A stretch of 58,600 nt of DNA from a virus (lineage: Duplodnaviria > Caudoviricetes): the IMG/VR virus record IMGVR_UViG_3300031834_000006, positions 1 through 58,600 of that record, one strand, 5' to 3'. Shown here piece after piece: positions 3,160 to 19,937 of this stretch. The notes beneath the pieces were generated by a model. The model did no database searches. It was not told the origin of the DNA and worked only from the letters and a program-made list of their open reading frames with translations. Position 1 is the stretch's first letter, and each line of letters starts with the position of its first letter. Position numbers and translations under genes: made by a program.

Positions 3160-5406
3160 TTACTTTGAATTTGGACCTTGCAAGCTAGAGGCCATTTTGG
3201 CATCAGCCAAGGCACGCTCTTGCGAAGCCTTTGCAGCTCTAATTTGTAGTTCTAATTCGCCTTTTTTCTTAAGGAAGTCAAGCTTTAATTCTTGCTCCAT
3301 TACTTTTAAGTCGGTTTGGCTTGTGGTTTCCGCGCCGGACTGCGGTTGTTGCTGGCCTTCTTTTTGCTGTTTCTGGGCGGCTCGGGTAGCGTTTAAGATC
3401 TTTTGTCCGGTTTGTTGCAGTACTTCTTGCGCTTGCGCCACAATAACCGAAGCGGTTGGGTCTTGAGCCAGTTGTTGCATGTGCTCGGAAGCGTGGTCGT
3501 TAAGGACTTGCAGTACGGGCAGGGTTTGTACAAGGTCAGCTTCGCCCGAATCAATTGCGGCGGTAAGCTGTACCAGCAATGGAAGGTGCTGGCCCAAGTG
3601 AGTTTCGTGCATTTCGCCGGGCTGTACAGAAACTGGGCGGCCCGTTTGCAACACACTATTTTCCAGCTCGGCAACTTTAAGGTCTTGGGGTGGGCGCGGA
3701 GATTCTGGGCTTTGCACGTAACGGGTTGCGTTTTCGTATCCAACCCGTGCGGCAACTCGGTCGTAAATAACGTTGCGTTTGCCGACCTCGTCCAGCATGG
3801 GCATAAGTTGTTCCAAGTCGCCCAAGGCCGCGCTGCGGCTACTTGCGTTTCCGTAACCCACCGCTTTGGTTGCAATAGTTTTGTTGAAGTCCAAGGTCTT
3901 AATGGCCAAGGCACCAACCCCACGGTTTTCGCAGCGGCGGTAGAAGTCGCGCACGGCCGGATCTGACTTTGGTCCGTTAACCACGCGCCGTACAACTTCG
4001 CGTAATAACCTGCGCCAGCTCGAATAGAACTGGTTAATTTGTGCGGACGTTAAACGGGTTGCTTGTTCTAGCTCGGCCTGTACCTGTTGCTTGCTCCGGT
4101 AAGCTCCACCGCTTTCGGCCGGGGCAGTGGTAAAGAAGTCCAAGTTTTGTTTTAGCTGGCCCTGTAAGTTCTCTAAAGCGGGTCCAACCGTTGTGGCAAT
4201 GTTGGGCACGCCCTTTTCAATTACTTTAAAGTTCGGGGGCAGGACCGAGTAAGGCCCGTAAAAGGTCAAGCTTAAATCGTTTAGGGCCCGGGGAGTTTCG
4301 GGCGCAAGCATAATTGAGCTGGAAAGCATGGCCGAGTCAATAAGCTGGCACTGCAATCGGTTGCTTGTTTGAACGTGGTTGTAGATCCGGTGGCCTAAGC
4401 CACGAATTGAGTGGTACGTTCCGTTAGTTCCAACCCCGTACGTAAACAAAAGGTAGGCTTGTTCTGGATTATCGAATCGGTTTGCGCCTTTGTGCAAAAA
4501 TGCTTTTGGGCTTTGCTCGGCAAAGCTAAAGTTTGAAACGGAACCGTCGAACTCGCGTACCCACAAGTTTACCACGTTTACCACGTTAGCGCGGATTCCG
4601 GTGTAGAGGTCATTGTTTTTTAGCTCGCGCTGTACGTCTTCCCAGTCAGTGTATTGCCGGGCCGAGTTCTGGGTAGTGGCGGTTTTAATTACTCGGCGGA
4701 CCTCTTCTACGTCCCAACCGTTTTGTGCGGCAACTTCTTCGTTTTCAATAAAGCTGTAAAGCTCGTGCACCATGTACGCACGGCGTGCGCAAGCGACCTC
4801 AACCGAGTGCTCGCTGGCTTGTGTTTGGCGCGGAATAAGATAGTCGGCCAAGCCGCAAGCGCGGAACCGAAAATTGAACTCGTCCTCGAAGTACGTAACG
4901 CCTACCCCGTGCATTAGGAACTGGTTTACCAAGCGCAGGTAAGTCCCGTAGAACTCGGGCCAGCTCCTTAAAGTGCGGGTAATTTCTTCAGCAATTACTC
5001 CGTCGTGGTGCATACGTTCGCCGGGCTCGCCCAAGGTTGTTTCGACCTGAACCAAGCTATCAACCGAGTCAATAAGGTCAACGTAACCGCTGGCAGCAAT
5101 ATCCAAAAAGCGACCAGCCTCACCAAAGTTAAGGTTGCAACGGCTTCCTTGGTTTGTAGATTTTAAAACGGCCGGGTCGTAAGGCGGGGCACCATCGAAC
5201 ATGGCTTGGATCCGGCTACGGTTAACGTTTGCTTTTTCGTCGGCACGCAGCAAGGCTTGGAAAATTCCAACCGCAGCGTTAACGTCGGCCAAGCGGCTAC
5301 CCTTTGGGGGCTTTCCGGAATCGTCCAAGTTTAAAAGCTCAATTTCGGTTAGACCGTGCTGAGCCTGAGCTTGCTTGTTTCGTTCGAACGTTGTTGTGGG
5401 CGGCAC
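3160..5406 (-). CDS. Portal protein
   Basis: 748 aa; helical, with a Q-rich coiled-coil C-terminal barrel; first gene of the head operon. Confidence 0.75.
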   Translation of the reverse strand: MPPTTTFERNKQAQAQHGLTEIELLNLDDSGKPPKGSRLADVNAAVGIFQALLRADEKANVNRSRIQAMFDGAPPYDPAVLKSTNQGSRCNLNFGEAGRFLDIAASGYVDLIDSVDSLVQVETTLGEPGERMHHDGVIAEEITRTLRSWPEFYGTYLRLVNQFLMHGVGVTYFEDEFNFRFRACGLADYLIPRQTQASEHSVEVACARRAYMVHELYSFIENEEVAAQNGWDVEEVRRVIKTATTQNSARQYTDWEDVQRELKNNDLYTGIRANVVNVVNLWVREFDGSVSNFSFAEQSPKAFLHKGANRFDNPEQAYLLFTYGVGTNGTYHSIRGLGHRIYNHVQTSNRLQCQLIDSAMLSSSIMLAPETPRALNDLSLTFYGPYSVLPPNFKVIEKGVPNIATTVGPALENLQGQLKQNLDFFTTAPAESGGAYRSKQQVQAELEQATRLTSAQINQFYSSWRRLLREVVRRVVNGPKSDPAVRDFYRRCENRGVGALAIKTLDFNKTIATKAVGYGNASSRSAALGDLEQLMPMLDEVGKRNVIYDRVAARVGYENATRYVQSPESPRPPQDLKVAELENSVLQTGRPVSVQPGEMHETHLGQHLPLLVQLTAAIDSGEADLVQTLPVLQVLNDHASEHMQQLAQDPTASVIVAQAQEVLQQTGQKILNATRAAQKQQKEGQQQPQSGAETTSQTDLKVMEQELKLDFLKKKGELELQIRAAKASQERALADAKMASSLQGPNSK

Positions 5407-6475: not shown

Positions 6476-6778
6476 TTACTTTTTACTGTCCAGAACCCGC
6501 AACAAGCGGTCCCACGCTGGCCAAAAAATGTTATCCAGCGCACGCACAACCGCCTCGGATTCGTACTTTTCGCTCCAACCAACCCCGCTAATAAGCAGGG
6601 TCGCTTCAATCATTTCGTGCCGCAAAGTCTCGCGCAAGGTAACCGGGTCGCGCAAGAGTTCTATGTCAAGCTCTATCCTCATTTTATCGTAAATGAATTG
6701 CCCGTAAGCGTCGTCAAGTTCTTTAAACTGAATCTTGACTCGCGCACCGCCCACCATAATTGACTTAGGTATTTTCAT
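6476..6778 (-). CDS. Small phage metallopeptidase-like protein (HExxE variant)
   Basis: MKIPKSIMVGG...YGQF...TLRHEMIEA...EAVV; ATGA overlap with the upstream HNH gene. Confidence 0.55.
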   Translation of the reverse strand: MKIPKSIMVGGARVKIQFKELDDAYGQFIYDKMRIELDIELLRDPVTLRETLRHEMIEATLLISGVGWSEKYESEAVVRALDNIFWPAWDRLLRVLDSKK

Positions 6779-7362
6779 TGGAACTTCTTTGATATTGTGT
6801 GAACTCGATCTAGAAAGTCGTGCAGGTTGCTGGTGCCTTTTGCGTAATTGCACGTAACGCAGCACGGAACGCAGTTGTCGTAAGTGTAGCCCACCTTGTT
6901 TTGCAGTCGGTCAATTCCCCAAGTTTTGTTTTCAACTGGTGTTTCGCCGCAGAAAAAGCAAGGTCTTTCAAATAATTCCAGCATTTCGTCCTTGGTTAGC
7001 GTGTGCGCAAGGCCCCGGCTCTTTGCAGAACTTGCGTTCTTTGTGCTCCACGCTTTAAAACGTGCGTCCCGGCTATTGCCCAACGTTCTTTTGTAGTGCT
7101 TTAAAGGCCTATTTACGGCTTTTTTTCTTTGGTTATACCAGTTTACTCTTCCTAACGTGGTGAAAAACATTCCCCCGGCAACGCTTTGACTGTACGCGTA
7201 AAAAACTTTGCTACCAAAAACTTCGTAACGCCTAAACTTTGCTTCTGGATTCAGTTTTATCCACGCACGAAGGGCTTGCCACTCCGCGCCGGACAAAGTT
7301 TTGGTGCTGGGAACTAGGAAGCCAGCACGCCTGTGAGCCTTTATTTTTGCTTCTAAATCCAA
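6775..7362 (-). CDS. HNH endonuclease
   Basis: CFFCG...GIDRLQNKVGYTYDNCVPCCVTCNYAKG zinc-finger HNH signature. Confidence 0.85.
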   Translation of the reverse strand: MDLEAKIKAHRRAGFLVPSTKTLSGAEWQALRAWIKLNPEAKFRRYEVFGSKVFYAYSQSVAGGMFFTTLGRVNWYNQRKKAVNRPLKHYKRTLGNSRDARFKAWSTKNASSAKSRGLAHTLTKDEMLELFERPCFFCGETPVENKTWGIDRLQNKVGYTYDNCVPCCVTCNYAKGTSNLHDFLDRVHTISKKFQ

Positions 7363-7842
7363 TTACTAAGCATTAAAGCATAATTTTGCGCCGTTCCAAA
7401 GAGAATTTTTTTTTGCAGGGGTGTATATATAGTATATAGAGTTGGAAAAAAAAATTGGCCACCCCCCAGTAGCCCCGCCGTGCACGCTGGTGCCCGCCCC
7501 CAGATCCTGCTAGATTTACCCAATTTGGCCCATCTAACAGTGAATCATGCGTCATGTACCGTGATTCATGGTCCATAACTCGTTGATACTGAAGCCTTAG
7601 TACTTTCAACTTGTTACAACGTATATAATACGGAGTCCAGTTTCTGGGTTCTGGATGCTGGGTTCTTGGGTCCGGCTCCGGCGGGGCTGGATGCGTAGGA
7701 CAAGCAACGTCCTATGGTGCTCTGGTATTACCCCGGGCATAGGACATTGCTTGTCCTACCCCGCATCCTGCACCGTGGATCTTGCATCTTGCATCCTGCA
7801 CCGTGTACCTTGGACCGCAGGGTACACTTGCGCGGTGCGGTG

Positions 7843-7935
7843 TACTACAAACCTAGTAACAAGATGCTTGGTGCTTGGTACTACAAACTTAGTACTTGTT
7901 AGTTTAAGCACTACTACAAACCTAGTACTTGTTAG
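7843..7935 (+). repeat. Triple direct repeat TACTACAAAC(C/T)TAGTA
   Basis: Copies start at 7843, 7879 and 7912; the last two match over 24 bp with 1 mismatch. Confidence 0.85.
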
Positions 7936-8067
7936 ACTAATCTAACGGGTGCTTTTCAACCCCCAAACCTTGTTAGTTAGCCTAACACTTTGAAAATAGT
8001 TTCGGCCCTGCAACCCTTGTAAACACTAAGAAAACTACCCGTTTGTGCCTTGGGTAAAAAATAATTG

Positions 8068-8095
8068 TAGACAGTTTCAACGGTAAGTGTAGCTT
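8068..8095 (+). promoter_or_regulatory. Putative early promoter upstream of the ribozyme array
   Basis: TAGACA-N16-TAGCTT preceded by an A-rich UP-like tract; lies ~30 nt before hammerhead 1. Confidence 0.4.
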
Positions 8096-8128
8096 GTGGT
8101 CGTTGCTGACAGCGGCGGCCAAACCAAA

Positions 8129-8182
8129 CCACCTGACGAAGGTCTCCGGCGGGAGACCGAAACCCCCTTGCGGGGGTCGTGG
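8129..8182 (+). ncRNA. Hammerhead ribozyme type I, copy 1 (predicted cleavage after C8178)
   Basis: CCAC CUGACGA A GGUCUCC-GGCG-GGAGACC GAAA CCCCC-UUGC-GGGGG UC^GUGG: complete catalytic core and three stems. Confidence 0.92.
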
Positions 8183-8215
8183 ACGCAAACAAGTCCCACT
8201 TACCAACCAACCACC

Positions 8216-8599
8216 ATGAAACAAGTAGACCTAAATATCGGGTTGGCCATTGGCCAGCAAAACAACGCACTGAGTTTAGCCCGTTGCAATCTCGGGCTGT
8301 CTCGTTTCGGGTTTTTGCCCGTACAACACCGCGTGTACGTTCGCGGGGGTTACGACGTACGGGGTTCCCAAAGCGGCGGCGAGAGCACTTACGCGGTGCG
8401 CTGCGCAGTGCTTGGGTCCCACTACGCAGCGGGGATATCCAACGAAGTGCCTGAGCGCATCCACGCATTGGCCGTTTGGCTGGACCAAGAGTGCATCGCG
8501 GCGGTGCCCCGTTGCGCAACCCCACCGTTCTTGGTGGGTCCAGCGGCTCACAAGTGGGGCGGCTGTTTTGAGGCACAGCTCTGGATCAGCGTAGACTAA
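8216..8599 (+). CDS. Early hypothetical protein (cargo of hammerhead 1)
   Basis: 127 aa, MKQVDLNIGL...; ATG follows an AC-rich leader; stop is 7 nt before hammerhead 2. Confidence 0.75.
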   Translation: MKQVDLNIGLAIGQQNNALSLARCNLGLSRFGFLPVQHRVYVRGGYDVRGSQSGGESTYAVRCAVLGSHYAAGISNEVPERIHALAVWLDQECIAAVPRCATPPFLVGPAAHKWGGCFEAQLWISVD

Positions 8600-8606
8600 C
8601 CTAAAA

Positions 8607-8660
8607 CCACCTGACGAGGCCCCTTGCAAGGGCCGAAACCCCCTGTAAAGGGGGTCGTGG
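8607..8660 (+). ncRNA. Hammerhead ribozyme type I, copy 2 (cleavage after C8656)
   Basis: CCAC CUGACGA GGCCC-CUUGCAA-GGGCC GAAA CCCCC-UGUAAA-GGGGG UC^GUGG: canonical core. Confidence 0.95.
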
Positions 8661-8687
8661 ACGCAAACAATAGTCCCAACCAAACCA

Positions 8688-8915
8688 ATGACAAAATTAA
8701 AAGCAATTCACAAAGTTCGGGGTTTTACTCTCACCCTCTATTATGACGGCACAATCTACTCTGATATCAAAAACGGGGTATACGTTGGGTCACTCTGGGA
8801 AGCTGAGAACGAGGGGTGCCTCTATAACCAATCAGGTACTGCTACTTTGCCAGTGCCAGAATCAGTAGTTGAAAAGTTCTGGGCTTTTGAACAAGCATTT
8901 TCTGATTCCCTGTAA
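8688..8915 (+). CDS. Early hypothetical protein (cargo of hammerhead 2)
   Basis: 75 aa ORF filling the interval between two ribozymes. Confidence 0.75.
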   Translation: MTKLKAIHKVRGFTLTLYYDGTIYSDIKNGVYVGSLWEAENEGCLYNQSGTATLPVPESVVEKFWAFEQAFSDSL

Positions 8916-8947
8916 TTTACCAATCAAGCGACCGAACTGTAAACAAA

Positions 8948-9003
8948 CCACCTGACGAAGGTCTCCGGCGGGAGACCGAAACCCCCTTTACAGGGGGTCG
9001 TGG
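8948..9003 (+). ncRNA. Hammerhead ribozyme type I, copy 3 (cleavage after C8999)
   Basis: CCAC CUGACGA A GGUCUCC-GGCG-GGAGACC GAAA CCCCC-UUUACA-GGGGG UC^GUGG. Confidence 0.92.
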
Positions 9004-9036
9004 ACGCAAACAAGTCCCACTTACCAACCAACCACC

Positions 9037-9693
9037 ATGACCACCACCACCACCATAGCTATTGCCGTACGCGTCAACCAATTCGTCAGCGTACAGGCCA
9101 CTTTGTACGCCCACTTGGGGCCTACTCCGGTAGCCCTGCACCGCACCGTGAACCGCGCTGGCTGGACCGTAACCAGCGTGGTTTGCGGTTTTGCAATGGT
9201 GCACGGCCCAACCCGCAACAAGGCCTTGGCGGAGTACCAAAGGGTCCTAATTGACTTGGGCCCCAGCGCGGTTTTGGCGCGGGTTGCGGCGGAGCCCGTT
9301 GCCCCAAGCCCCGATTCGCTCAAACCAGCCCCAACCAAACGGCCCAAGCCCAAGGCGGCTCCAGCCAACGGCGGCAACGCGGTTGCGGTAGCTTACGCGG
9401 TTGCAGAGCGTGCGGGACTTACGGTTGCGGAGCGGGACGCTGTTCTCCGCGCCTTGTGCAAGAGCGGCCCCAACGCTGGCCGATTACTGGCCCAAGCCCC
9501 AGCGCGGTACAAGGACCCGTTAGGCCAAGCCGCTTGGAACGGCTTGCAGCCCAACCCCTACAAAATCCAGCCAAGCTGCGTACTTTTGGCCGCACCTGCG
9601 GAGCGTGCACTGCTGGACAAGCTGGTGCCCAAGAACTGGCCAGTTTGGTTGGACTCAGACGCACGCGCGCTAGTAGAGCTAGGCGTTTGGTAA
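9037..9693 (+). CDS. Early hypothetical protein (cargo of hammerhead 3)
   Basis: 218 aa; two domains joined by a P/K-rich linker; TAA abuts hammerhead 4. Confidence 0.75.
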   Translation: MTTTTTIAIAVRVNQFVSVQATLYAHLGPTPVALHRTVNRAGWTVTSVVCGFAMVHGPTRNKALAEYQRVLIDLGPSAVLARVAAEPVAPSPDSLKPAPTKRPKPKAAPANGGNAVAVAYAVAERAGLTVAERDAVLRALCKSGPNAGRLLAQAPARYKDPLGQAAWNGLQPNPYKIQPSCVLLAAPAERALLDKLVPKNWPVWLDSDARALVELGVW

Positions 9694-9694
9694 A

Positions 9695-9748
9695 CCACCT
9701 GACGATGGCCCCTTGCAAGGGCCGAAACCCCCCTTGCGGGGGTCGTGG
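9695..9748 (+). ncRNA. Hammerhead ribozyme type I, copy 4 (cleavage after C9744)
   Basis: CCAC CUGACGA U GGCCC-CUUGCAA-GGGCC GAAA CCCCC-CUUGC-GGGGG UC^GUGG. Confidence 0.92.
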
Positions 9749-9776
9749 ACGCAAACAATAGTCCCAACCAACCAAA

Positions 9777-9986
9777 ATGAACAACGATCTATCAGATATA
9801 AAACACTACGAGTCAACATTTGACTCGGTCGCCCACGAACTTATCAGCTTGATTGCTGATAGAGAAAAAGAAGTAAAGGGTAGTATAGATAATACCCAAC
9901 TCATCGATGCGTACTACTCATTCAGAGATATCCTTCAAGCAAAAGCCCAACAGCTATACCCAGATTACGACTTCGAGAACTTCTAA
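9777..9986 (+). CDS. Early hypothetical protein (cargo of hammerhead 4)
   Basis: 69 aa acidic helical ORF. Confidence 0.7.
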   Translation: MNNDLSDIKHYESTFDSVAHELISLIADREKEVKGSIDNTQLIDAYYSFRDILQAKAQQLYPDYDFENF

Positions 9987-9990
9987 CATC

Positions 9991-10284
9991 ATGATTATAC
10001 TCTTAAGACAAAGCAACATTAAATTAGGCACCCCTAACGACCACAGTCTAACGTTGGCTGAAGCAGGATTTATCTGGGTCAAATACCTTGAGGTGTTCGA
10101 CGATAGGATTGAGTTCATGCCTCTTGGTCAGCAAGACTATGAACCCACGGCAATTAAAAAAGTTAATGGTGACTGTTGGTTAGAACCCAACACGGGAATC
10201 ATGTACGAATATTTCTTCGTATACCCTTCGGAGTGGGTTCGATCATTACCCCGTCACCTAGAAATCAAACCTAAAACCACCTGA
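9991..10284 (+). CDS. Early hypothetical protein
   Basis: 97 aa from ATG 9991 (MIILLRQSN...); its TGA stop is part of the CUGACGA core of hammerhead 5. Confidence 0.65.
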   Translation: MIILLRQSNIKLGTPNDHSLTLAEAGFIWVKYLEVFDDRIEFMPLGQQDYEPTAIKKVNGDCWLEPNTGIMYEYFFVYPSEWVRSLPRHLEIKPKTT

Positions 10285-10329
10285 CGAGGCCCCTTGCAAG
10301 GGCCGAAACCCCCCTTGCGGGGGTCGTGG
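10277..10329 (+). ncRNA. Hammerhead ribozyme type I, copy 5 (cleavage after C10325)
   Basis: CCAC CUGACGA GGCCC-CUUGCAA-GGGCC GAAA CCCCC-CUUGC-GGGGG UC^GUGG. Confidence 0.95.
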
Positions 10330-10355
10330 ACGCAACCACAACCAACCAACCAACC

Positions 10356-10529
10356 ATGACCACTGAAACAATAGACTGTACCCCTACTTGGGAGTTCGCC
10401 GCCAACGTTTATATCGAAGTCCTACGGAACCCAGACGCGGGTTTCTACGCGGTGCAAACCGCCAAGGACGAAATCCTGCGCTTGGCCCGCACCGTGGACC
10501 AACTCAACCAAATCAACCAAAAACCATGA
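10356..10529 (+). CDS. Early hypothetical protein (first cargo of hammerhead 5)
   Basis: 57 aa, MTTETIDCTPTW...; follows an ACCAACC-repeat leader. Confidence 0.7.
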   Translation: MTTETIDCTPTWEFAANVYIEVLRNPDAGFYAVQTAKDEILRLARTVDQLNQINQKP

Positions 10530-10891
10530 AAATCGAACAAGAATTACGCGCTAGAAAGCTCATCATTACCGCCGATCCCCAGCAGGTCGCCAAAATTACT
10601 GGGGTCAAAGAGCTCCAGTACGGCCGGACCCATGAGGTCTTTGCTGGTGCTCCGTGCCAGTGGAGCCTCGAACGGGGGGCAACCCATACCCTGTACTGCG
10701 GCGAGGGCATTGGACGCGGTACACGCCCTGCCAAACTGCTTAAAACTCGGCTGTACGCGGGTGTGGACGAGCTTGACGACCAGATCGTTTGGCACAAGTG
10801 GAACATACGAACTCTTTGGGAGTTCCCGCTTACCGAAACCGCGTGCGTGCGCGAAGTAACCGCTGAAGAACTCGAAGAACTCCAACCATGA
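10526..10891 (+). CDS. Early hypothetical protein
   Basis: 121 aa, MKIEQELR...; ATGA overlap with the previous gene. Confidence 0.7.
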   Translation: MKIEQELRARKLIITADPQQVAKITGVKELQYGRTHEVFAGAPCQWSLERGATHTLYCGEGIGRGTRPAKLLKTRLYAGVDELDDQIVWHKWNIRTLWEFPLTETACVREVTAEELEELQP

Positions 10892-11037
10892 ACCTTGACC
10901 TACTAATCATTGTGGGCACCACCTACCTTGGCAACGCGCTAATCTTTGGATGGCTGCAAGCCTTGCCTTATACTATAACCATAGTAGCTGCTTCTGCGGC
11001 CATTTGGTTAGTGTTAGTGTTAGGCTGCATCCTGTAA
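10888..11037 (+). CDS. Small hydrophobic membrane protein (not in the ORF track)
   Basis: 49 aa MNLDLLIIVGTTYLGNALIFGWLQALPYTITIVAASAAIWLVLVLGCIL; ATGA-coupled. Confidence 0.6.
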   Translation: MNLDLLIIVGTTYLGNALIFGWLQALPYTITIVAASAAIWLVLVLGCIL

Positions 11038-11054
11038 CTTGAAACCTGAAAACT

Positions 11055-11417
11055 ATGACCAAACAACTGAACTGGAAACCCGTGGTAAGTAGCCTAATTA
11101 AGCTGCTACAAGCGGAAAAATACCGCGTGCTTTACGTGCACGACGGCCAAGACCACCACTACTACCACGAACTGGATTCGTTAAGAACAACCTGTTTTAA
11201 AGCCAGCAAGGCCATTTGCGCGGTTGACGAAGCCTACTTGGTGGTTGAGGACCTAAGTCAGGGTAGCGGCTACACGCTTACGCTTTTCTTGGTCCTTGGA
11301 AACAGCCCAGAAGAAATTGTAGCTGATTGCAGTTGCAATGCACGCTTGGACGAGGTACTAGAAGCCTTTAGCACATTTTGGCAAGGAGCTCCTTGCCCAA
11401 CCAAAACACAACCATGA
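11055..11417 (+). CDS. Early hypothetical protein
   Basis: 120 aa ORF in a coupled operon. Confidence 0.7.
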   Translation: MTKQLNWKPVVSSLIKLLQAEKYRVLYVHDGQDHHYYHELDSLRTTCFKASKAICAVDEAYLVVEDLSQGSGYTLTLFLVLGNSPEEIVADCSCNARLDEVLEAFSTFWQGAPCPTKTQP

Positions 11418-11575
11418 CCACCATATTAAAATTAAACGTTAGGCTTTTGGTGCAGCACCAAGAGGACTTCGATGCCCAGAAATTCGTGGATGAACTCCGC
11501 TACGATTTCTTTGACCCAGCGATCCAAGAAGTAGAAATTATTGAAATCCTTAGCCAAGAACCCCGTGACCTTTAA
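11414..11575 (+). CDS. Early hypothetical protein
   Basis: 53 aa from ATG 11414; ATGA overlap. Confidence 0.6.
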   Translation: MTTILKLNVRLLVQHQEDFDAQKFVDELRYDFFDPAIQEVEIIEILSQEPRDL

Positions 11576-11798
11576 ACTTACGTGCACCCACAAGTGGGGC
11601 CTAATTCAAGCTGGGGAAAACTACCAAGTCCGGCGTAACCCGTACGGGCTTGCGGTTTTTCAAGAAAATGACTTGCCAGCTTGGACCGCGCACCCAACAG
11701 TGGTGCTGGATCCGGAAGGCAAGTGCCACCCTAACAAGTTCTTTACAAACGCACCACAACCATCCCAGATTACGACTTCGAAAACTTCTAAGCCATGA
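11565..11798 (+). CDS. Early hypothetical protein
   Basis: GTG start; fills the operon gap; start position uncertain. Confidence 0.5.
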   Translation: MTFKLTCTHKWGLIQAGENYQVRRNPYGLAVFQENDLPAWTAHPTVVLDPEGKCHPNKFFTNAPQPSQITTSKTSKP

Positions 11799-12085
11799 AA
11801 CCAACAACAGCCATTAAGAAAGCTGGGTCCTTAGTGGGCCAGCTCCAGCGAACCGGAAACGCTTGGGCGTACCTTTGGTACGACCAGCAATACAACGCCT
11901 ACCGCAGCATTAATTACTGCGACTACTGGCAAGCGTACAGCAAACGCCGCACAAGCCTAATTGAAACGGCTTTGCGGCTTTTATTCCCAGACCAAGACCA
12001 AGAACTCGCCGGACTCCAACCAGAGTACCGCAGCGGCCGTTGGCAAAACTGGGTTTGGCAAATCTACCAACAAAACCAAGCATGA
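11795..12085 (+). CDS. Early hypothetical protein (W/Y-rich)
   Basis: 96 aa; ATGA overlap. Confidence 0.7.
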   Translation: MKPTTAIKKAGSLVGQLQRTGNAWAYLWYDQQYNAYRSINYCDYWQAYSKRRTSLIETALRLLFPDQDQELAGLQPEYRSGRWQNWVWQIYQQNQA

Positions 12086-12387
12086 AAACAAAAGAACAAA
12101 TAGAACAGCAAAATAACGCAATCCACGTAGCCCTGCTTTTGGGTGCGCACTACTCCACGCAAGCGGAACAACACAAACTGCGTTTGCCTTGCGGCATTGA
12201 GCTCCTGCTTTGGTGGGACCTTAACAACCAAGTGCATGTGCAGTGCGTTCAGGGCCGTGGATACCACCGCTGTCAACACCCGTTTGAAAGCTCGCGCACT
12301 TTAGCCCGCCGTTGCCAAAGCTACGTTTGGGTTATTACCAAAGACTGGGACCAAGAAAACTACCCAAATAAAAGCACCAATGTTTGA
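12082..12387 (+). CDS. Early hypothetical protein
   Basis: 101 aa from ATG 12082; ATGA overlap. Confidence 0.65.
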   Translation: MKTKEQIEQQNNAIHVALLLGAHYSTQAEQHKLRLPCGIELLLWWDLNNQVHVQCVQGRGYHRCQHPFESSRTLARRCQSYVWVITKDWDQENYPNKSTNV

Positions 12388-12613
12388 CTCCTTAACAACA
12401 ACCGAAAGCGGGGACCTGCGCCAATGCGTTAGCGAAGCGCACGCCACTAACTGCGGGCCTGAACGTTTGTTCAGGGACCACAACGATATTTACGTAGACA
12501 GAAACGCACGTTTCAATTACACTGCGGACCAAATCTGGCGCGGGGGAACAATTCCCAAGCGCAGAGACACAAAAACAAACCAAGAACCCAATATAGATTA
12601 TGCACGGTATTAA
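12380..12613 (+). CDS. Early hypothetical protein
   Basis: 77 aa ORF overlapping both neighbours. Confidence 0.55.
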   Translation: MFDSLTTTESGDLRQCVSEAHATNCGPERLFRDHNDIYVDRNARFNYTADQIWRGGTIPKRRDTKTNQEPNIDYARY

Positions 12614-13034
12614 CGAAATCAAAAAGCAAAACGCACAAGCAAAAGCAAACTACGACAACAGCCGCCAAGGCACTTTCGTAGTACTCCAAAACGGCAACGT
12701 ACTGTTGCGTTTGGGGGCCCACTCAAAGACCATTGAAAGCCGCGACGAAGCCGCCGAGTTCTTGGACCAAGTCCGTGGACGAACCAGCGGTTACGTTCGA
12801 GGCGTGGTGCAGGGGTATTTCACCCAGCCGGACTTCGAACAGGATTTTGAAGACAGCCGCAACGGCACGTACAGCGTGCTGGATAGCGGAGGCATTCTAA
12901 TCCGGAACGGCCTAAGCAGCAAAACTATTGACGAGCCACAGGACATTGTAGAGTTCTTGGGCAAGGTGGTGGACCGCGAAACCGAACTCGTTCGCAACGC
13001 GGTGAAGTCTTACTTTGCTCCGGCCTTGGCATGA
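12600..13034 (+). CDS. Early hypothetical protein with an internal domain duplication
   Basis: YDNSRQGTFVVLQNGNVLLR..SKTIE..EFL repeated as FEDSRNGTYSVLDSGGILIR..SKTID..EFL. Confidence 0.75.
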   Translation: MHGINEIKKQNAQAKANYDNSRQGTFVVLQNGNVLLRLGAHSKTIESRDEAAEFLDQVRGRTSGYVRGVVQGYFTQPDFEQDFEDSRNGTYSVLDSGGILIRNGLSSKTIDEPQDIVEFLGKVVDRETELVRNAVKSYFAPALA

Positions 13035-13115: not shown

Positions 13116-13155
13116 AAAGCCCCAAGGTCTAATGAACCTTGGGGCTTTTTTGTTT
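13116..13155. terminator. Bidirectional intrinsic terminator between the convergent early and virion operons
   Basis: AAAGCCCCAAGGT...ACCTTGGGGCTTT stem with a T-run on the plus strand and an A-rich flank. Confidence 0.85.
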
Positions 13156-16100
13156 TACGGGTTTACGGGTATGAACCTTGGCCGCTTTTGTATGGCTTGT
13201 TTTAAGTAGTCAACCCGAGCTTGGCCGTTAGATTCACCGCCGCGCTCAAGCATTTCGCTAAACATATCTTTTTCAAACACAACCCGATCCACCACGTTGC
13301 GTTTTATAATTTGGTTGTAGCGGTCCTTACTAATTCCAACGTCATTTGCTTGGCGTTTAAGTTCCTGCTCGCTTACGCCTAGCTTCTGGAAACCGCTTAC
13401 TATTTTCTGCAACTTACGGGCCGCGAACAAACGTGCGTCTTCCAAGCTAACGTAAACGTCTTCCACCTGTTGCGAGCTCAGGGGTGCCTCTGTTTTAAAC
13501 TTACCCCGCTCGGCCGTAACCGCATCTTGGTCCCTTTTAATTTTACCAAACGCTTGGTGCGCTAGCTTAACCAAGTCGTACCTACGGGTTTGGAAAGGAC
13601 TAAACTCGTTTGCCACTAGCTCCGAAGCCGTGGCCAGCCTTGCGTCTTGGTCGTAAATACTATTGTTAGTGTACGCTTCAAACGCTTGCAAGAACTTCTG
13701 CGGGGACTTCAAACGGTACGCTGAGTTGGCTAAGTACTTAACAACTTTAAACGCGGCTTCCGGCGTGCTATCATTTTCGTACCAAATTTTTCCGCCTTGG
13801 TCGTTTGTATTGTTCCGCGCCTTGGCAATAGCTTCAACGGCAATTTGGGGCGAGAAAAACGCGTGCGCAACGGCCCCAAAAAGAACCGCTGGAGCTTCGT
13901 CTGCGCGTCCGTTTAGCATTAAGTGCGCGGACCTCATAAACGGATCCGTTATAAGCGAAAACGGGTGCACGTACGTAAGGTTCCACATTTTAATTTTGCT
14001 TGGGTCCTGCTGGTCCTTTGCAAAGTAGTAGTTAACGTCCTTTGCCCAAGCCGGAAGGCTATTCCGAATCGACTCTTCTTGGTCGTCTTCAAAACCACCT
14101 ACGGCTTTAAGAATTTCTGGAACCGCGCTGCTTGCAAGCACCAAGCCAAGTCCGGCTAGTCTTTTAATACCCCGAGCCCGTAAAACTGGGTTGCCGGAGT
14201 TAAATTCTTTAAAGCCAACCGAAGTAATGGCAAAGGGTAACCGAACAGTTTCTGCGGTGAACCGGAAATAGCTGTTCATTAGGGTAGCCAACGGGCTGGC
14301 TTGGAAAGCCTTGGCCACGGCCACAACCTCGGACCTACCCTGCGTTGTTTTGCGTACAGTTCGCGCAGCCAATTGTTTAATTTGAGTTTCAGTCCACTTG
14401 GTGGTATTGTACGCGTTAGCCTCGGTTAAAACCTTAACTTCGTGCGAGTAGTACGCGAACTTGTACATCAAATCAATTGCTTCTGCGGCTGAAGCCAGCG
14501 AATCAAAGGCCGAACTAACAGCTTGGTAAGGAGCCTTAACAGCGGTTAGCGTGGCCGAGGCTACCTTGCCCTTGTTTCGAATTGTTTCTTCCAACTTTGC
14601 TAGAAAGTTAACTGGGTCCCCGCTCATTCCGTTTAGCAGGTCCTTTAAAACCCCACCGTTTATGGAGTCCTTTAGACCCAAAGCAATAAGGTCCGAGCCT
14701 AACGGGCCCAGCTCGCTTAGGCTAAACTTTTCGTCGGGTCTAGCAAACTCCGGCAATATTTGCGCGGCGCGGTTTAAGAAGTTCGTACCGTAAATTTCGT
14801 TTAGACCTTTAATAGAGTCGGCAATGTTTGCGGGGCTGGCAATGAAACCATTTGCACCCATGTACAACACGTTGCTAACCATGTTACGGGTATAGAATCC
14901 GGCCGAGCCAAGCGTAAGCATACCCAAGGATTTTCCAATAGCCTTTGCGGTTAGCAGTTCGATTTGGTAAATGAACTGAGCGGCATCACTTTTCGGGGCT
15001 TTGCGGTCCGGGGAGAACGATACTTTAAATGCTTCCTTTACTTCCGGCGGTGCGTAGTAATTTGACAAAGGCTCGCCGCCCAAGGTCTTGGTTGAGTTAA
15101 GCAAGGGCTCGTACAGCCTGTACTTTTCTGGGTCCTTGGCCTTTTCGTCGGCGGTAACTAGGAACCCGTTGTCCAAGCCACCTTGGGCGAACTGGTTAAG
15201 CAGCCTTTGCGTTCCTAAAAAGGTAGACAAGTTCGAGTACGTACGCATGGCGTTTTCAACTGGGTTCTGTATTTCCCCCAGAATTGCAACCAGCTCACGC
15301 GGCACTTCACCCTTTTCCATGAACCGTGTAAGGTCAGTTTTATTAAGAATCTTTCCCGGGATTTCTGGAGTTTCGCCGTGCTGTTCAATGAAGTTATCCA
15401 GCTCAATTGAACCAATGCTTTGGGCACGCGCTTCGGCTTCAACCAAGGCTCTAACTTCCGCGTCCGAATACACCGCGTACAAGTCATTTGAACGCCAGCT
15501 TTTAAAGGTGCGGTTTACCCAAGCCTTTTCAAAGAAGTCCCTTGCTTCTTGCCTTGCTTGCGCAAAGGTTGGATCGTTTTTAATTTTCTCAACGTAGCCT
15601 TCGTCGTGGTGGATTTGGTAGGTGCGGGTAAGGTACACGCCCAAGTTCTCGGTAACCACCGCACGCATTGGATCGTTTGGCCCAAGCGACTCAACCAATT
15701 GCTGGCTTAGCGAATCAATTGCGATACGGAACTCGGTTACCACGTTGGCCACGCGGGGGTTGTTTTGCTCTAGCCGGAACAACGCTTGTTGCTGGGCAAC
15801 CATTGCTGTTTTAACGCCCTTGGCTCGGGCGGCTTGGATTTCCAAAGCGTACGCGGAGTTGGCCGCTGTAATGGCGGCGGTTCGCGTTTGCTTTTCCGGT
15901 GAGTTAGCGAGCTCGGCTTGCAACGTAGTAACCTCGCGCTGGTAAAGTTTTACGTCTTGGTGCGTGGCGTAGTCAGCGCGTGCCTTTATGGTGCCTTGCT
16001 GGTACCTTGCGTACGCTTGGTCAGTTTGTTTGTACTGAGCGTTTAGGGCTTCCAGCTCCGCGTCCCGCGTTGCTTTGGCGGCGGCGCGGTCAGCCGTTGA

Positions 16101-19100
16101 AACGGTTGGGGCCGTGGTGCCCAACGCAACGTTAACATCGTCCAAGTCTACGGTAGGTTCTTTCTTTAACGCGCCCAAGAAAGTCTTGGTTAGTCCGGCC
16201 ACGCGTTGGTTGGCCAAGCTCATTGCACGTTCTTGGTACTGCTTGGCTTCGTACATACGTGGATCCAAGTTTCCGGATGCACGCAACAAGCGGGTTAGCT
16301 TGTTACCAAAGTTGTACTCGCCCGTTACCTCGTTAATTGCTAGGTCATCCAGCGATACTCGGTAAGCTGACTCAATGTCCGGCGAGGTTACCGCAGTAAG
16401 TGCTCGGCTTAACAGAATTTTTGGTTCTTTAGGCTTTGGGTTTAGCGCAAGCGAGCGGTCGCTATCGGGGACCTTGGTTACCTTGTGCTGGCCAAACAAG
16501 ACCCCAGCCGTGTGAGTTTTAGAAACGTATCCAGCAAAACCTTTGTCCTTAATTGCTTTTTCGTACAAAGTAGTGGCGGCGCGGTCATCAAAACGGGCGT
16601 ACCCCAACGCAACACGTTCGTCTCGGCTTGGGAACAGGTCCAAGGGGTCAGCATCGTAGTCGTACAAACTGTCTCCTGCCACCTTAATTTGGTAACGGAA
16701 CTGCCCAATAATGTGTTCGCGCACGTAACTGCTATAACCAAAATACGTTCTTGGTTGGTAAATCTTTTTGTAGTCCCGCTTGCGGTCCTTCTCAGATCCA
16801 ATTCCGCCAGTGCCGTGCATATTAGGGTCTGTGTTTTCTAGTTCCGAGTCAAAGGACCAGTGAGTAAGCTGAACTTCTTTGCCTCGGAACCTTGCTGGTG
16901 CAGCGGACTTGCTGTACCGAATGTCGTTGCTTTGTATATCAAAGCGTTGATCAAGCGGAACTCCCGTGAATGCTTCTGCGGATTTGATTTGCTCGGGATT
17001 AAGTATTATTGTTTCAGAGGAATCTGAATGAGCAGTTCCTGCAAAACGAACTGAATCATATCCATTCTTTAGTAGGTAAGCCCTTGTGTTTTCACCAATT
17101 TTATCCTTACCTGTGATATTTATACCAAGGTGATTCACCAATAAAGATTCAAGCTGATCTTGCCCTTGAGAAACAAGGAATGGTTTGTCTGACTTTACAA
17201 ACAACGATAAAACTTCACCTGTTTGTTTTATGGTTTGATGTGGGTAATCCCCTTCAAAATAACGGCCAACGTATTGCGCTGAATCGGCAATATCTTTTCT
17301 TCCAGAAACAAAAAAACCAATCTTGCTTCCGATTGTCCGAGTATTCTTACCAAGTAACTCGGTAAGAAATTGAGTAACTCCACGAGTTTTTGTTCCGTGA
17401 TATACTCTCTCGTCATACCCCGATGATCGTGCACGTTTTTCAACAAGCTTTTTCGCTTCAGCCGTCTCCTCTGGTGTGATCGTTCCGTCGTTATACTTAG
17501 CTTCAAGCTCAGCGTGGCGAACAAGGTAGTCGGCATCCATTTGTGGCGTTGCAGCGCGGCTGTACCGCAAGTCAATTTGTCCGGTTGGCTCTGCCGCCAA
17601 GTTAACTCGAGGCTGCTGGTAACGCGGCTTTGAGTCGTACGTGGGGTTCTTCATAAAAACCCTTGACCCAACTATAATTGCATCGTCAAAAGTAAGAACG
17701 GGTAGCTTGGTGCGTACGTCAACAAACTCGCTCGACCGTGCTGGGTTGTACGCAATTTCGGCCCATACTTCTGGGTCGTTAATGTCGGCTGGCAATCGGT
17801 CGATCTTAACGTTCTCGCCCCGCACCGTGGCAAGCGGGAACTTGCCGCCGCCCTGCGCAATGGAAATTGGGCTACCCTTTTCAGCTCGGGTAATTACTTG
17901 GCCGTTCTTAACTCTGGCAATGGTTGTATAGCCAAGCACAGTGCTTGCTCTTGCTGTACCTCCCGGCTTGTGCGCGGTAATTGCGTACGTTACTTCTCCG
18001 GCTTCCAACGAACGATTGTAGGTGGGAATGTCGATACGCCAGTCAACTAGCTGGCCCTCGGGAATACCCAAGTCCGCCATTACCTTGCCAATCTTTTCTT
18101 CCTCGTCAGCGGATAATACCTTACCGTCACGGCGAGCAACAATGTATTGCTTAACTTGATCCACGGGCGGAATGGCTTGCGCACCCTTAACTACCCAAGG
18201 ATCTAGTACTTCAACCAAGTCAGCAAAGGTTGCGTTATCAATTTGACCTTCGGCCAAACGAACGGCGGCAACGGCCAGCTCGCCAGAACGTTTGTTCTTG
18301 GTTGCGCTAGCAAAAGCCTTGCTTTCTTGTTCCGTGGTTGGAGCCAAAGCTGCACGGCTAAACTGAATTGTTGGAGCGTTATCGTCCACGGTTAAAGAAT
18401 CACGGGTCCAAGCAACGGACTCAGCAATGGTTCCGTCCGCATTAAGAATAACAAGGCCATCGTAGCCTTGCTTTTCACCCAAGCTCTTAAAGTGTTTTCC
18501 AATGTTACCGTATTCTTCAAACAAGTGCTCGGCCTTAGCGGCTGCCTTTTCTTCGGTTAAGCCCAACGCTTTAAAAACCAAAGCTGGACCCCTTGCTTTG
18601 TCCGATACCTTAACAACCAAGGGCTTCATAAACAATACGTCAAACGTAGTTACTTCTGCTTGGCCCTTTTCTTTTCTAGCTTCTTTGGCGTAGTCTACAG
18701 AACGTGCAGCGTCTGGGGTAGTGTAGTACCCGTAACCGTAAACGCCTTCCGCGCTAGCCTTCATTGGGGTGCGCCCGTCAAACGTTCCGCCGTGGTAACC
18801 CGTAACGTAAAGCGGCTTGCCGTTCGGCGGGTTAACAGCTACCTTGGGTATGCTAAGCTGGTTAAGTATACCTTCTTTTGTAGTGGCGCGGCTGTACCGA
18901 ATGTCCGGTGCAGCTTCGTTGAACCGCTCGCTTAACGGGATTACTCTATCCTTGTTGCGGGTAACGGGGTCTGCGGACTTGATTTGCTCAGGTGAAAAAA
19001 CAACAATAAATTCAGGTCCGTCAACCGCTCCGTCAAAGCCGCGATCAATTATGTCTCCGGTAACATCACCGTTTTCTTTTAGGTAACCAATAGTAACGGG

Positions 19101-19922: not shown

Positions 19923-19937
19923 TGTTACGTGGCCGTC

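What the first reader, a model, noticed from the sequence alone, without database searches (positions are those of the whole stretch)
8129..10329. Array of five hammerhead ribozymes punctuating the phage early operon: a self-processing polycistronic mRNA
Seen: five ~54-nt repeats at 8129, 8607, 8948, 9695 and 10277. Each has the full hammerhead core CUGACGA...GAAA...UC^, with stem I (CCAC/GUGG), stem II and stem III all able to pair. The core is invariant while stem II switches between two different but fully paired sequences (GGUCUCC/GGAGACC vs GGCCC/GGGCC) and loop III varies, as expected if structure rather than sequence is under selection. All are on the coding strand, 30-37 nt upstream of an ATG, and copies 2-5 lie at or within ~30 nt of the previous stop. 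Established: this is the type I hammerhead consensus with the preferred GUC cleavage triplet. Inference: the early transcript cuts itself at 8178, 8656, 8999, 9744 and 10325 into gene-sized RNAs of 478, 343, 745 and 581 nt plus a 3' polycistronic remainder. This would be a protein-free analogue of RNase III processing of T7 early mRNA. Isolated hammerheads are known in phages, but I do not know of a described ribozyme-per-cassette expression system.
Basis: partly seen in the sequence, partly recalled or inferred. Interest (0 to 1): 0.97.

Follow-up and report, generated by a model that had tools for sequence, protein, structure and literature searches.

The report
Hammerhead ribozyme array in phage operon
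Five well-formed self-cleaving hammerhead RNA motifs sit between the first genes of a phage operon and probably cut its long transcript into single-gene messages, an arrangement first described for prophages in 2011 and common in uncultured phages.

Summary
Five repeats at 8129-8182, 8607-8660, 8948-9003, 9695-9748 and 10277-10329 (+) all fit a type I hammerhead (5 matches against 0.02 expected).

The fold is supported by covariation. In 55 and 85 distinct relatives from viral contigs, 97% and 95% of helix cells pair, and 13 and 14 of 17 pairs show changes on both sides. A pseudoknot between loop II and the tail after stem I also covaries.
- stem I is only 4 bp;
- three copies carry an extra base between A9 and G10.1;
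- Rfam does not call these copies.

Across the family the ribozyme lies between the stop of one gene and the start of the next, about 31-33 nt downstream. Arrays of up to 8 copies occur elsewhere.

Self-processing of a polycistronic mRNA is the best reading, but it is inferred. The idea is not new: Perreault et al. 2011 described and tested clustered hammerheads flanking prophage genes. This is a new member of a known kind, of moderate interest.

The parts
7363..8128 (+). Divergent non-coding control region upstream of the operon. It holds repeated motifs, and a conserved block ends near 8079. The promoter presumably lies here but was not identified.
   Evidence: The window stretch 7300-7784 is 89% identical over 492 aligned positions, and 7878-8077 is 83% identical, to relative G002. 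7300-8127 is 67% identical to G001. Repeat families D2 and D4 lie here. No sigma-70-like site was found on the + strand upstream of copy 1.
8129..8182 (+). Hammerhead 1, type I. Stem I is CCAC/GUGG, with an extra A after A9. Stem II is 7 bp with loop GGCG, stem III 5 bp plus A15.1-U16.1. Predicted cut after C8178.
   Evidence: Model R1 scores 87.4 bits. The hammerhead fold is the minimum-energy fold of the isolated motif and of the nascent RNA.
8179..8215 (+). Leader 1. It holds the tail ACGCAA (the pseudoknot partner of loop II), the hairpin GUGGAC..GUCCCAC, and a C/A-rich stretch without a Shine-Dalgarno sequence.
8216..8599 (+). Gene 1, 127 aa, GC 0.59.
   Evidence: Matches phrog_11722 (unknown function, 3.1e-8). 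Homologues in G001 and G002.
8607..8660 (+). Hammerhead 2. Stem II is GGCCC/GGGCC with loop CUUGCAA. Cut after C8656.
   Evidence: R1 scores 74.2 bits. This is the only copy seen by RF00163, at 16.1 bits.
8688..8915 (+). Gene 2, 75 aa, GC 0.43. No homologue in the two relatives.
8948..9003 (+). Hammerhead 3, a near copy of hammerhead 1 including its leader. Cut after C8999.
   Evidence: R1 scores 83.7 bits.
9037..9693 (+). Gene 3, 218 aa, GC 0.63.
   Evidence: 94% identical to its G002 homologue and 60% to the G001 homologue.
9695..9748 (+). Hammerhead 4, with an extra U after A9. Cut after C9744.
   Evidence: R1 scores 74.9 bits. An alternative hairpin is 5.6 kcal/mol more stable in the nascent RNA.
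9777..10284 (+). Genes 4 (9777-9986, 69 aa) and 5 (9991-10284, 97 aa), both low in GC (0.40 and 0.42). Hammerhead 4 plus gene 4 form a unit that sits elsewhere in G002.
   Evidence: Window 9692-9986 is 89% identical over 295 aligned positions to G002 joined positions 3535-3826.
10277..10329 (+). Hammerhead 5. Cut after C10325. The stop codon of gene 5 is the UGA of its CUGA box.
   Evidence: R1 scores 72.3 bits.
10356..13034 (+). Rest of the operon: about ten small genes without hammerheads, several with overlapping stop and start codons (ATGA).
   Evidence: No further R1 match at E<=10.
11745..11791 (+). Remnant of the 3' end of a gene 4-like cassette, at the place where G002 carries hammerhead plus gene 4.
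   Evidence: Window 9940-9986 and window 11746-11791 are 85% identical over 47 aligned positions (E 1e-9). G002 matches the window on both sides of its cassette at 93-94%. The likeness to a hammerhead leader is weak.
13116..13148 (.). Bidirectional intrinsic terminator closing the operon.
   Evidence: A stem of 13-14 pairs followed by T runs on both strands.

Best explanation
The five repeats are genuine type I hammerhead ribozymes of a large phage-borne subfamily. The subfamily has a 4-bp stem I, a GUC cut site, and a pseudoknot between loop II and the tail that follows stem I.

Inferred mechanism:
1. The operon, from about 8.08 to 13.15 kb, is transcribed as one RNA.
2. Each hammerhead folds as soon as its stem I 3' strand is made, and cuts after C17.
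3. The upstream piece ends in two G+C-rich hairpins and a 2',3'-cyclic phosphate.
4. The downstream piece starts with a 5'-hydroxyl. Its first bases refold into a small hairpin (GGAC/GUCC or GUGG/CCAC). A standard unstructured C/A-rich leader of 30-37 nt then runs to the ATG.

The result would be gene-length mRNAs whose stability and translation no longer depend on their neighbours.

What is shown is the motif, the covariation, the position between genes, and folding energies consistent with a fold-cleave-refold order. Transcription as one unit, cleavage itself, and its effects on stability and translation are inferred. The effects of 5'-OH ends and terminal hairpins on RNase attack are recalled general knowledge.

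The roughly 85-nt unit of hammerhead plus leader also travels with its downstream gene between related phages. It therefore doubles as a portable expression module.
For: Motif:
- 5 matches against 0.02 expected.
- Model R1 finds exactly these 5 copies in 58.6 kb, at 72-87 bits.

Covariation in relatives:
- Tail-forced set: 55 distinct copies, 97.3% of cells paired against 71.4% in shuffles, 13 of 17 pairs with changes on both sides, slid controls 29-56%.
- Tail-unbiased set: 85 distinct copies, 95.5% against 66.6%, 14 of 17 pairs, slid controls 31-43%.
- The CUGANGA box is kept in 53 of 55 and 80 of 85 distinct copies, and GUC in 49 of 55 and 76 of 85.

Pseudoknot:
- Loop II has 4 or more complementary bases in its own tail in 14 of 58 loop/tail combinations, against 4.8 +/- 2.0 when tails are dealt anew (0 of 1000 reach 14).
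- The window copies can form 3 bp (GCG with CGC) or 4 bp (UUGC with GCAA).

Position:
- 46 of 56 distinct copies have an ATG-ORF of at least 40 aa starting 15-45 nt after the cut, against 483 of 2800 random positions.
- The upstream frame often ends in the UAA that abuts stem I (27 of 56 copies) or in the UGA of the core box (17 of 56).

Folding:
- For copies 1-3 the hammerhead is the minimum-energy fold of the nascent RNA. It is overtaken by the downstream hairpin once 45 more bases exist (1.1-3.4 kcal/mol).

One transcription unit:
- There are no terminator-like sites at the repeats, and a strong terminator lies at 13116-13148.

Precedent:
- Three prophage arrays cleaved during in vitro transcription and one cleaved in E. 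coli (PMC3088659, passages read).

Module mobility.
Against:
- Rfam's curated hammerhead models do not accept these copies.
- For copies 4 and 5 an alternative long hairpin is 5.6 and 4.4 kcal/mol more stable than the hammerhead in the nascent RNA, and 8.3-8.4 kcal/mol more stable in context. They may cleave poorly unless folding is kinetic or the pseudoknot helps.
- None of the five minimum-energy folds with flanks forms stem I.
- Three copies carry an extra base in the core region.
- The 5' hairpin of the product occurs in only 18 of 38 family representatives. It does not significantly follow stem I identity (swap control 13.1 +/- 2.9; 147 of 2000 reach 18).
- The promoter was not found, so a single transcript is assumed.
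- The alignments used for pair counts were fitted to the model, which favours the structure.
Confidence: 0.72

Rival explanations
1. The hammerheads are active but serve regulated or partial cleavage, tuning decay or the timing of particular genes, rather than constitutive separation of all cistrons. The competing downstream hairpin, or the misfold of copies 4 and 5, would act as the switch.
For: Alternative folds compete with stem I in all five copies. Copies 4 and 5 are thermodynamically disfavoured. Perreault 2011 raises regulated cleavage for phage hammerheads.
Against: No ligand-binding or sensor element is evident. The nascent-RNA fold of copies 1-3 is the active one. The family-wide fixed position between stop and start fits a constitutive punctuation role.
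Confidence: 0.12
2. After double cleavage the gene-length pieces are rejoined, by hammerhead reversal or by an RtcB-type ligase, into circular or shuffled RNAs. All five copies share the same stem I and tail, so the two ends of a piece rebuild a complete hammerhead.
For: Stem I (CCAC/GUGG) and the tail ACGCAA are identical in all five copies. Each excised piece would carry a 5'-OH and a 2',3'-cyclic phosphate. That hammerhead cleavage gives these ends is stated in the abstract of PMC8782182, seen in the search listing.
Against: Perreault 2011 looked for spliced or circular products in prophage arrays and found none. The 5' hairpin of the product would withdraw the strand needed for rejoining. 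Identical stems are equally explained by recent duplication.
Confidence: 0.06
3. The repeats matter mainly as DNA, as shared homology for recombination that shuffles gene cassettes, and RNA catalysis is vestigial.
For: Gene order differs among the three related phages. The hammerhead 4 plus gene 4 unit sits at another place in G002, and a remnant is left in the window. Hammerheads upstream of a 94%-identical gene have unrelated stem II sequences.
Against: Unpaired core bases are kept, while paired positions change in a compensating way, across more than 100 distinct copies. This is selection on the RNA. The pseudoknot covaries.
Confidence: 0.05
4. The paired G+C-rich hairpins are terminators, attenuators or sites for a host RNase or protein, and the hammerhead likeness is incidental.
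For: There are two stable hairpins per repeat.
Against: No T run follows the hairpins, and no terminator-like site was called at the repeats. The full hammerhead core, the three-way junction and stem I covariation are not needed for any of these roles.
Confidence: 0.02

Closest known systems
Clustered hammerhead ribozymes flanking genes in prophages (Perreault et al. 2011, PMC3088659)
   Same: Several hammerheads lie in the gene orientation between single genes or short blocks of phage genes. The same hypothesis is proposed, that long phage transcripts are cut to gene-length mRNAs. Pseudoknots stabilise the active fold. (Passages read.)
   Different: The arrangements named in the passages read are triple or tandem, and mix hammerhead types. 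Here there are five copies of one type I subfamily, each with a standard leader, and relatives carry up to 8 per fetched locus. The paper's figures and its supplementary alignment could not be seen, so this subfamily may already be in its data.
Rfam Hammerhead_1 (RF00163), type I
   Same: Open stem I, the CUGANGA / GAAA / UH core, and hairpin-closed stems II and III.
   Different: It scores 16.1 bits against a cut-off of 34, and for one copy only. The window copies have long stems II and III, a 4-bp stem I and a tail pseudoknot.
RNase III processing of T7 early mRNA
   Same: By analogy, a polycistronic early transcript is cut between cistrons, leaving hairpins at the 3' ends. This comparison is recalled, not tested.
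   Different: That processing uses a host protein enzyme acting on double-stranded sites. Here the RNA itself is inferred to do the cutting, and the ends would be 5'-OH and cyclic phosphate.
RiboJ synthetic insulator (hammerhead plus 23-nt hairpin; PMC7536230, passages read)
   Same: A hammerhead followed by a hairpin placed ahead of the translation start, which gives every mRNA the same 5' end whatever lies upstream.
   Different: RiboJ is an engineered part built from a plant satellite RNA ribozyme (origin recalled). Here the arrangement is natural, repeated five times, and lacks a Shine-Dalgarno site.
PeSL promoter/stem-loop cassettes of T4-type phages (PMC2839356, PMC4122927; titles and abstract starts seen)
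   Same: Short repeated regulatory units between small variable genes that go with the shuffling of gene cassettes.
   Different: PeSLs are promoter-terminator motifs acting in transcription. These units are ribozymes acting after transcription.

Membership tests
Hammerhead ribozyme (core consensus as used by Perreault 2011) | C3 U4 G5 A6 N7 G8 A9, G12 A13 A14, A15.1-U16.1, H17 | tested here: met
   All 5 copies read CUGACGA ... GAAA ... UC.
Hammerhead ribozyme (core consensus as used by Perreault 2011) | Three helices, with intact pairs next to the core (10.1-11.1, 1.1-2.1, 15.1-16.1) and no extra core bases | tested here: inconclusive
   The pairs are intact in 5 of 5 copies. Copies 1, 3 and 4 have one extra base between A9 and G10.1. 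The same insertion recurs in 19 of 55 and 9 of 85 distinct relatives, and a base there is a conserved trait of Penelope-element hammerheads (PMC4209133).
Hammerhead ribozyme (core consensus as used by Perreault 2011) | Helices kept by compensating changes in relatives | tested here: met
   13 of 17 and 14 of 17 pairs change on both sides; 97.3% and 95.5% of cells are paired.
Hammerhead ribozyme (core consensus as used by Perreault 2011) | Tertiary contact between the stem I and stem II regions | tested here: met
   Loop II is complementary to the tail after stem I beyond permutation controls. The window copies can form 3-4 bp.
Hammerhead ribozyme (core consensus as used by Perreault 2011) | Self-cleavage at C17 | not testable with these tools
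Rfam Hammerhead_1 / Hammerhead_3 | Score at or above the curated gathering threshold | tested here: not met
   0 matches at gathering score. RF00163 gives 16.1 of 34 bits for 1 of 5 copies. RF00008 gives none.
Type I topology | Both ends of the motif lie in stem I; stems II and III are closed by loops | tested here: met
Clustered phage hammerheads between genes | Several copies, on the gene strand, between the stop of one gene and the start of the next | tested here: met
   5 copies on the + strand. Gaps to the previous stops are 7, 32, 1 and -8 nt, and leaders are 30-37 nt.
Intrinsic terminator | G+C-rich hairpin followed by a T run | tested here: not met
   No terminator-like site was called at any repeat.

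The most novel reading that the evidence does not exclude
The gene-length RNAs released between neighbouring hammerheads are rejoined end to end. All copies share one stem I and one tail, so each piece can rebuild a complete hammerhead from its own ends. This would give circular, exonuclease-proof phage mRNAs, or shuffled joins between cassettes.
Probability: 0.06. Interest if true: 0.85.

Novelty: new member of a known kind. Interest (0 to 1): 0.5.

Why it matters
The biological role of bacterial and phage hammerheads is still called largely elusive (review PMC6765202).

This window and its relatives show a very regular design: stop codon, ribozyme, short standard leader, start codon. The design is repeated up to eight times in a row, and it occurs in a phage whose genes lack Shine-Dalgarno sites (2 of 44). 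That makes the processing hypothesis easy to test with one 2.7-kb construct.

The current Rfam type I model also appears to miss a large set of phage hammerheads. In addition, hammerhead-plus-leader units travel with genes between phages, which suggests a natural counterpart of synthetic ribozyme insulators.

Tried and rejected
- Rfam gave nothing usable, at gathering score and at E<=10 and with single families RF00163 and RF00008.
- Nucleotide search of cultured phages with 7000-13000 found no match. The DNA polymerase is at most 27% identical among the listed cultured phages, so the host stays unknown.
- The pattern hit L006 has no helices and was dropped as chance.
- My descriptor also reported three weak long hits (L049, L078, L091; 3-4-bp stems). 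R1 did not confirm them at E<=0.001.
- The bacterial-genome scan returned mostly chance matches. 1 of 80 fetched loci holds an R1 match (L118, a Lysinibacter MAG).
- A 5'-terminal hairpin in the cleavage product is enriched over composition: 18 of 38 representatives against 4.6 +/- 1.8. It does not significantly follow stem I identity (swap control 13.1 +/- 2.9), so I do not claim covariation for it.
- A possible scar of a hammerhead leader at 11749-11761 rests on 12 matched bases in 13 aligned positions and is not claimed.
- The terminator and promoter scan shows no terminator at the repeats and no sigma-70-like promoter ahead of copy 1.
- A Bacteroidota-type promoter reading of 8043-8075 is recalled pattern-matching only and was not tested.
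- PHROGs and Pfam give no function for the operon genes.
- The supplementary files of Perreault 2011 (alignments, Figures S1-S8) were not opened. They may already contain this subfamily or larger arrays.
Full report
**What is there**

The window is a whole viral record of 58.6 kb, estimated 97% complete. It is a tailed dsDNA phage with terminase, DNA polymerase, helicase and primase, and it is far from cultured phages.

On the + strand an operon of about 15 small genes runs from 8216 to 13034. It follows a conserved divergent control region and ends at a strong bidirectional terminator at 13116-13148. Five 85-nt repeats precede the first cistrons. Each contains CCAC-CUGACGA-stem II-GAAA-stem III-UC-GUGG. 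A gapped pattern for this arrangement matches 5 times against 0.02 expected.

**Is it a hammerhead?**

The curated Rfam models say no. There were 0 matches at gathering score and no hammerhead at E<=10. RF00163 gives 16.1 bits against a threshold of 34, for copy 2 only. RF00008 gives nothing.

The definition by core and helices says yes, and comparative data settle it.
- Pattern scans of viral contigs found close relatives with 3 and 6 copies and a large wider family.
- A covariance model built from 25 copies finds exactly the five window copies, at 72-87 bits, and nothing else at E<=10.
- It finds 61 copies in 87 sources and 104 copies in 67 further loci.
- On 55 distinct sequences, 97.3% of cells pair (shuffles 71.4%, slid partners 29-56%), and 13 of 17 pairs change on both sides.
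- On 85 distinct sequences from a scan that did not fix the tail, the figures are 95.5% (shuffles 66.6%, slid partners 31-43%) and 14 of 17.
- Stem I itself switches among CCAC/GUGG, CCGC/GCGG, CCCG/CGGG, CCCA/UGGG and others, while G10.1-C11.1 and A15.1-U16.1 stay fixed.
- The core box is kept in 53 of 55 and 80 of 85 distinct copies. The remainder are copies with an inserted base in stem I that my parser misread, or truncated copies.

Two caveats apply. These alignments were fitted to the model. The scan patterns also fixed the core in one copy per locus.

- *Short stem I and a pseudoknot.* Stem I has only 4 bp, which alone would suggest a slow minimal ribozyme. However, the bases after stem I (ACGCAA in the window) are complementary to loop II. 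In the tail-unbiased set, 14 of 58 distinct loop/tail combinations have 4 or more complementary bases, against 4.8 +/- 2.0 when tails are dealt anew (0 of 1000 reach 14). The changes match each other: GGCA with AUGC, GGGG with ACCC, UGAC with GUCA, GGAUA with UAUCC. The window copies can form GCG with CGC (copies 1 and 3) or UUGC with GCAA (copies 2, 4 and 5). Pseudoknots of this kind were shown to be critical for fast cleavage in a tested type II hammerhead and are predicted in all three types (Perreault 2011).
- *An extra core-region base.* Copies 1, 3 and 4 carry an extra base between A9 and G10.1. This recurs in the family (19 of 55 and 9 of 85 distinct copies). A base at that place is known in other natural hammerheads.
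- *A competing hairpin.* The strand GUGG can also pair downstream (GGAC/GUCC or GUGG/CCAC).

**Folding order**

For copies 1-3 the hammerhead is the minimum-energy fold of the motif alone, and of the nascent RNA that ends at stem I. Once 45 more bases exist, the downstream hairpin wins by 1.1-3.4 kcal/mol. This fits a sequence of fold, cleave and refold. The refolding would hide the new 5' end and hinder religation.

For copies 4 and 5 a long alternative hairpin is already 5.6 and 4.4 kcal/mol better in the nascent RNA. That counts against efficient cleavage unless folding is kinetic. The product hairpin is frequent in the family (18 of 38 representatives against 4.6 +/- 1.8 in shuffles). It is not universal and does not significantly follow stem I.

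**Position**

Across the family the ribozyme sits between cistrons.
- 46 of 56 distinct copies have an ATG-ORF of at least 40 aa starting 15-45 nt after the cut, with a median of 32 nt. Random positions give 17%.
- In the second set, 63 of 85 do, with a median of 33 nt.
- The upstream frame commonly ends in the UAA that abuts stem I (27 of 56 copies) or in the UGA of the core box (17 of 56).
- Arrays are common. Counts per fetched locus are 8 in L235; 7, 7 and 6 in L225, L252 and L274; 5 in L023; and 4 in L259.
- In the window the later genes have no ribozyme. Several of them overlap stop and start instead.
- The phage has almost no Shine-Dalgarno-like words, 2 of 44 genes, and its leaders are A/C-rich.

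**Modules**

Gene order differs among the window, G001 and G002. Hammerhead 4 plus gene 4 (window 9692-9986) is 89% identical over 295 aligned positions to a unit that lies elsewhere in G002. At that place the window keeps only the last 47 nt of the gene. Genes 2, 4 and 5 have GC of 0.40-0.43, against 0.59-0.63 for genes 1 and 3. Gene 3 is 94% identical between the window and G002, yet its upstream hammerhead has an unrelated stem II. So the units are exchanged. This resembles the PeSL cassettes of T4-type phages (listing only).

**What is known**

- Perreault et al. 2011 reported multiple hammerheads flanking single genes or short gene blocks in prophages. They proposed processing into gene-length mRNAs and saw the expected products from three arrangements in vitro and from one in E. 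coli. They looked without success for spliced or circular products.
- A 2019 review repeats the processing idea and calls the functions largely elusive.
- A 2026 paper notes type I hammerheads with a long helix III in phage DNA.
- My searches for more specific descriptions found none in the held library.
- RiboJ, a hammerhead plus a hairpin, is the engineered counterpart.

**Verdict**

Self-processing of the operon transcript is the best-supported reading (about 0.7) but was not tested here. The novelty claim fails. This is a new member of a known kind, with some family-level regularities that may be under-described.

Noticed in passing
window 7363-8128: The long non-coding divergent region is unusually conserved: 83-89% identical to G002 over the two aligned stretches, and 67% to G001 over about 830 nt. 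It holds an A/T-rich palindromic block around 7410-7440, inverted repeats at about 7695-7762, and tandem copies of TACTACAAACCTAGTACTTGTTAG (7879, 7912). It could be an origin or a promoter and operator cluster.
   Followed up: partly
window, all genes: Only 2 of 44 gene starts have a Shine-Dalgarno-like word at -20..-4. Upstream regions are A/C-rich and G-poor, which points to a host that starts translation without Shine-Dalgarno pairing. The host was not identified.
   Followed up: partly
window 11745-11791: The last 47 nt of a gene 4-like cassette are fused to the end of the upstream ORF (11541-11798), at the spot where the relative G002 carries a hammerhead plus gene 4. This is a fossil of cassette loss or transfer.
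   Followed up: partly
L240 4939-5074: Two hammerheads of the family lie directly head to tail (4939-5008 and 5009-5074) with no gene between them.
   Followed up: no
L235 1334-6904; L225 5676-10577: Other viral contigs carry 8 and 7 copies within about 5.6 and 4.9 kb, spaced mostly 280-700 nt apart. These arrays are larger than the one in the window.
   Followed up: partly
window 13155-27335 (-): Two very large ORFs of 2255 and 2465 aa lie in a row on the minus strand. They were not examined.
   Followed up: no
window 6775-7362 (-): This ORF matches endonuclease VII and HNH endonuclease families (phrog_1035, 2.9e-19). It lies next to the control region.
   Followed up: no
A4 rows such as L235, L221, L215: One branch of the family has loop II UGAGAUU and tails such as UAAACA, with little complementarity between them. 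It probably uses a different tertiary contact.
   Followed up: no
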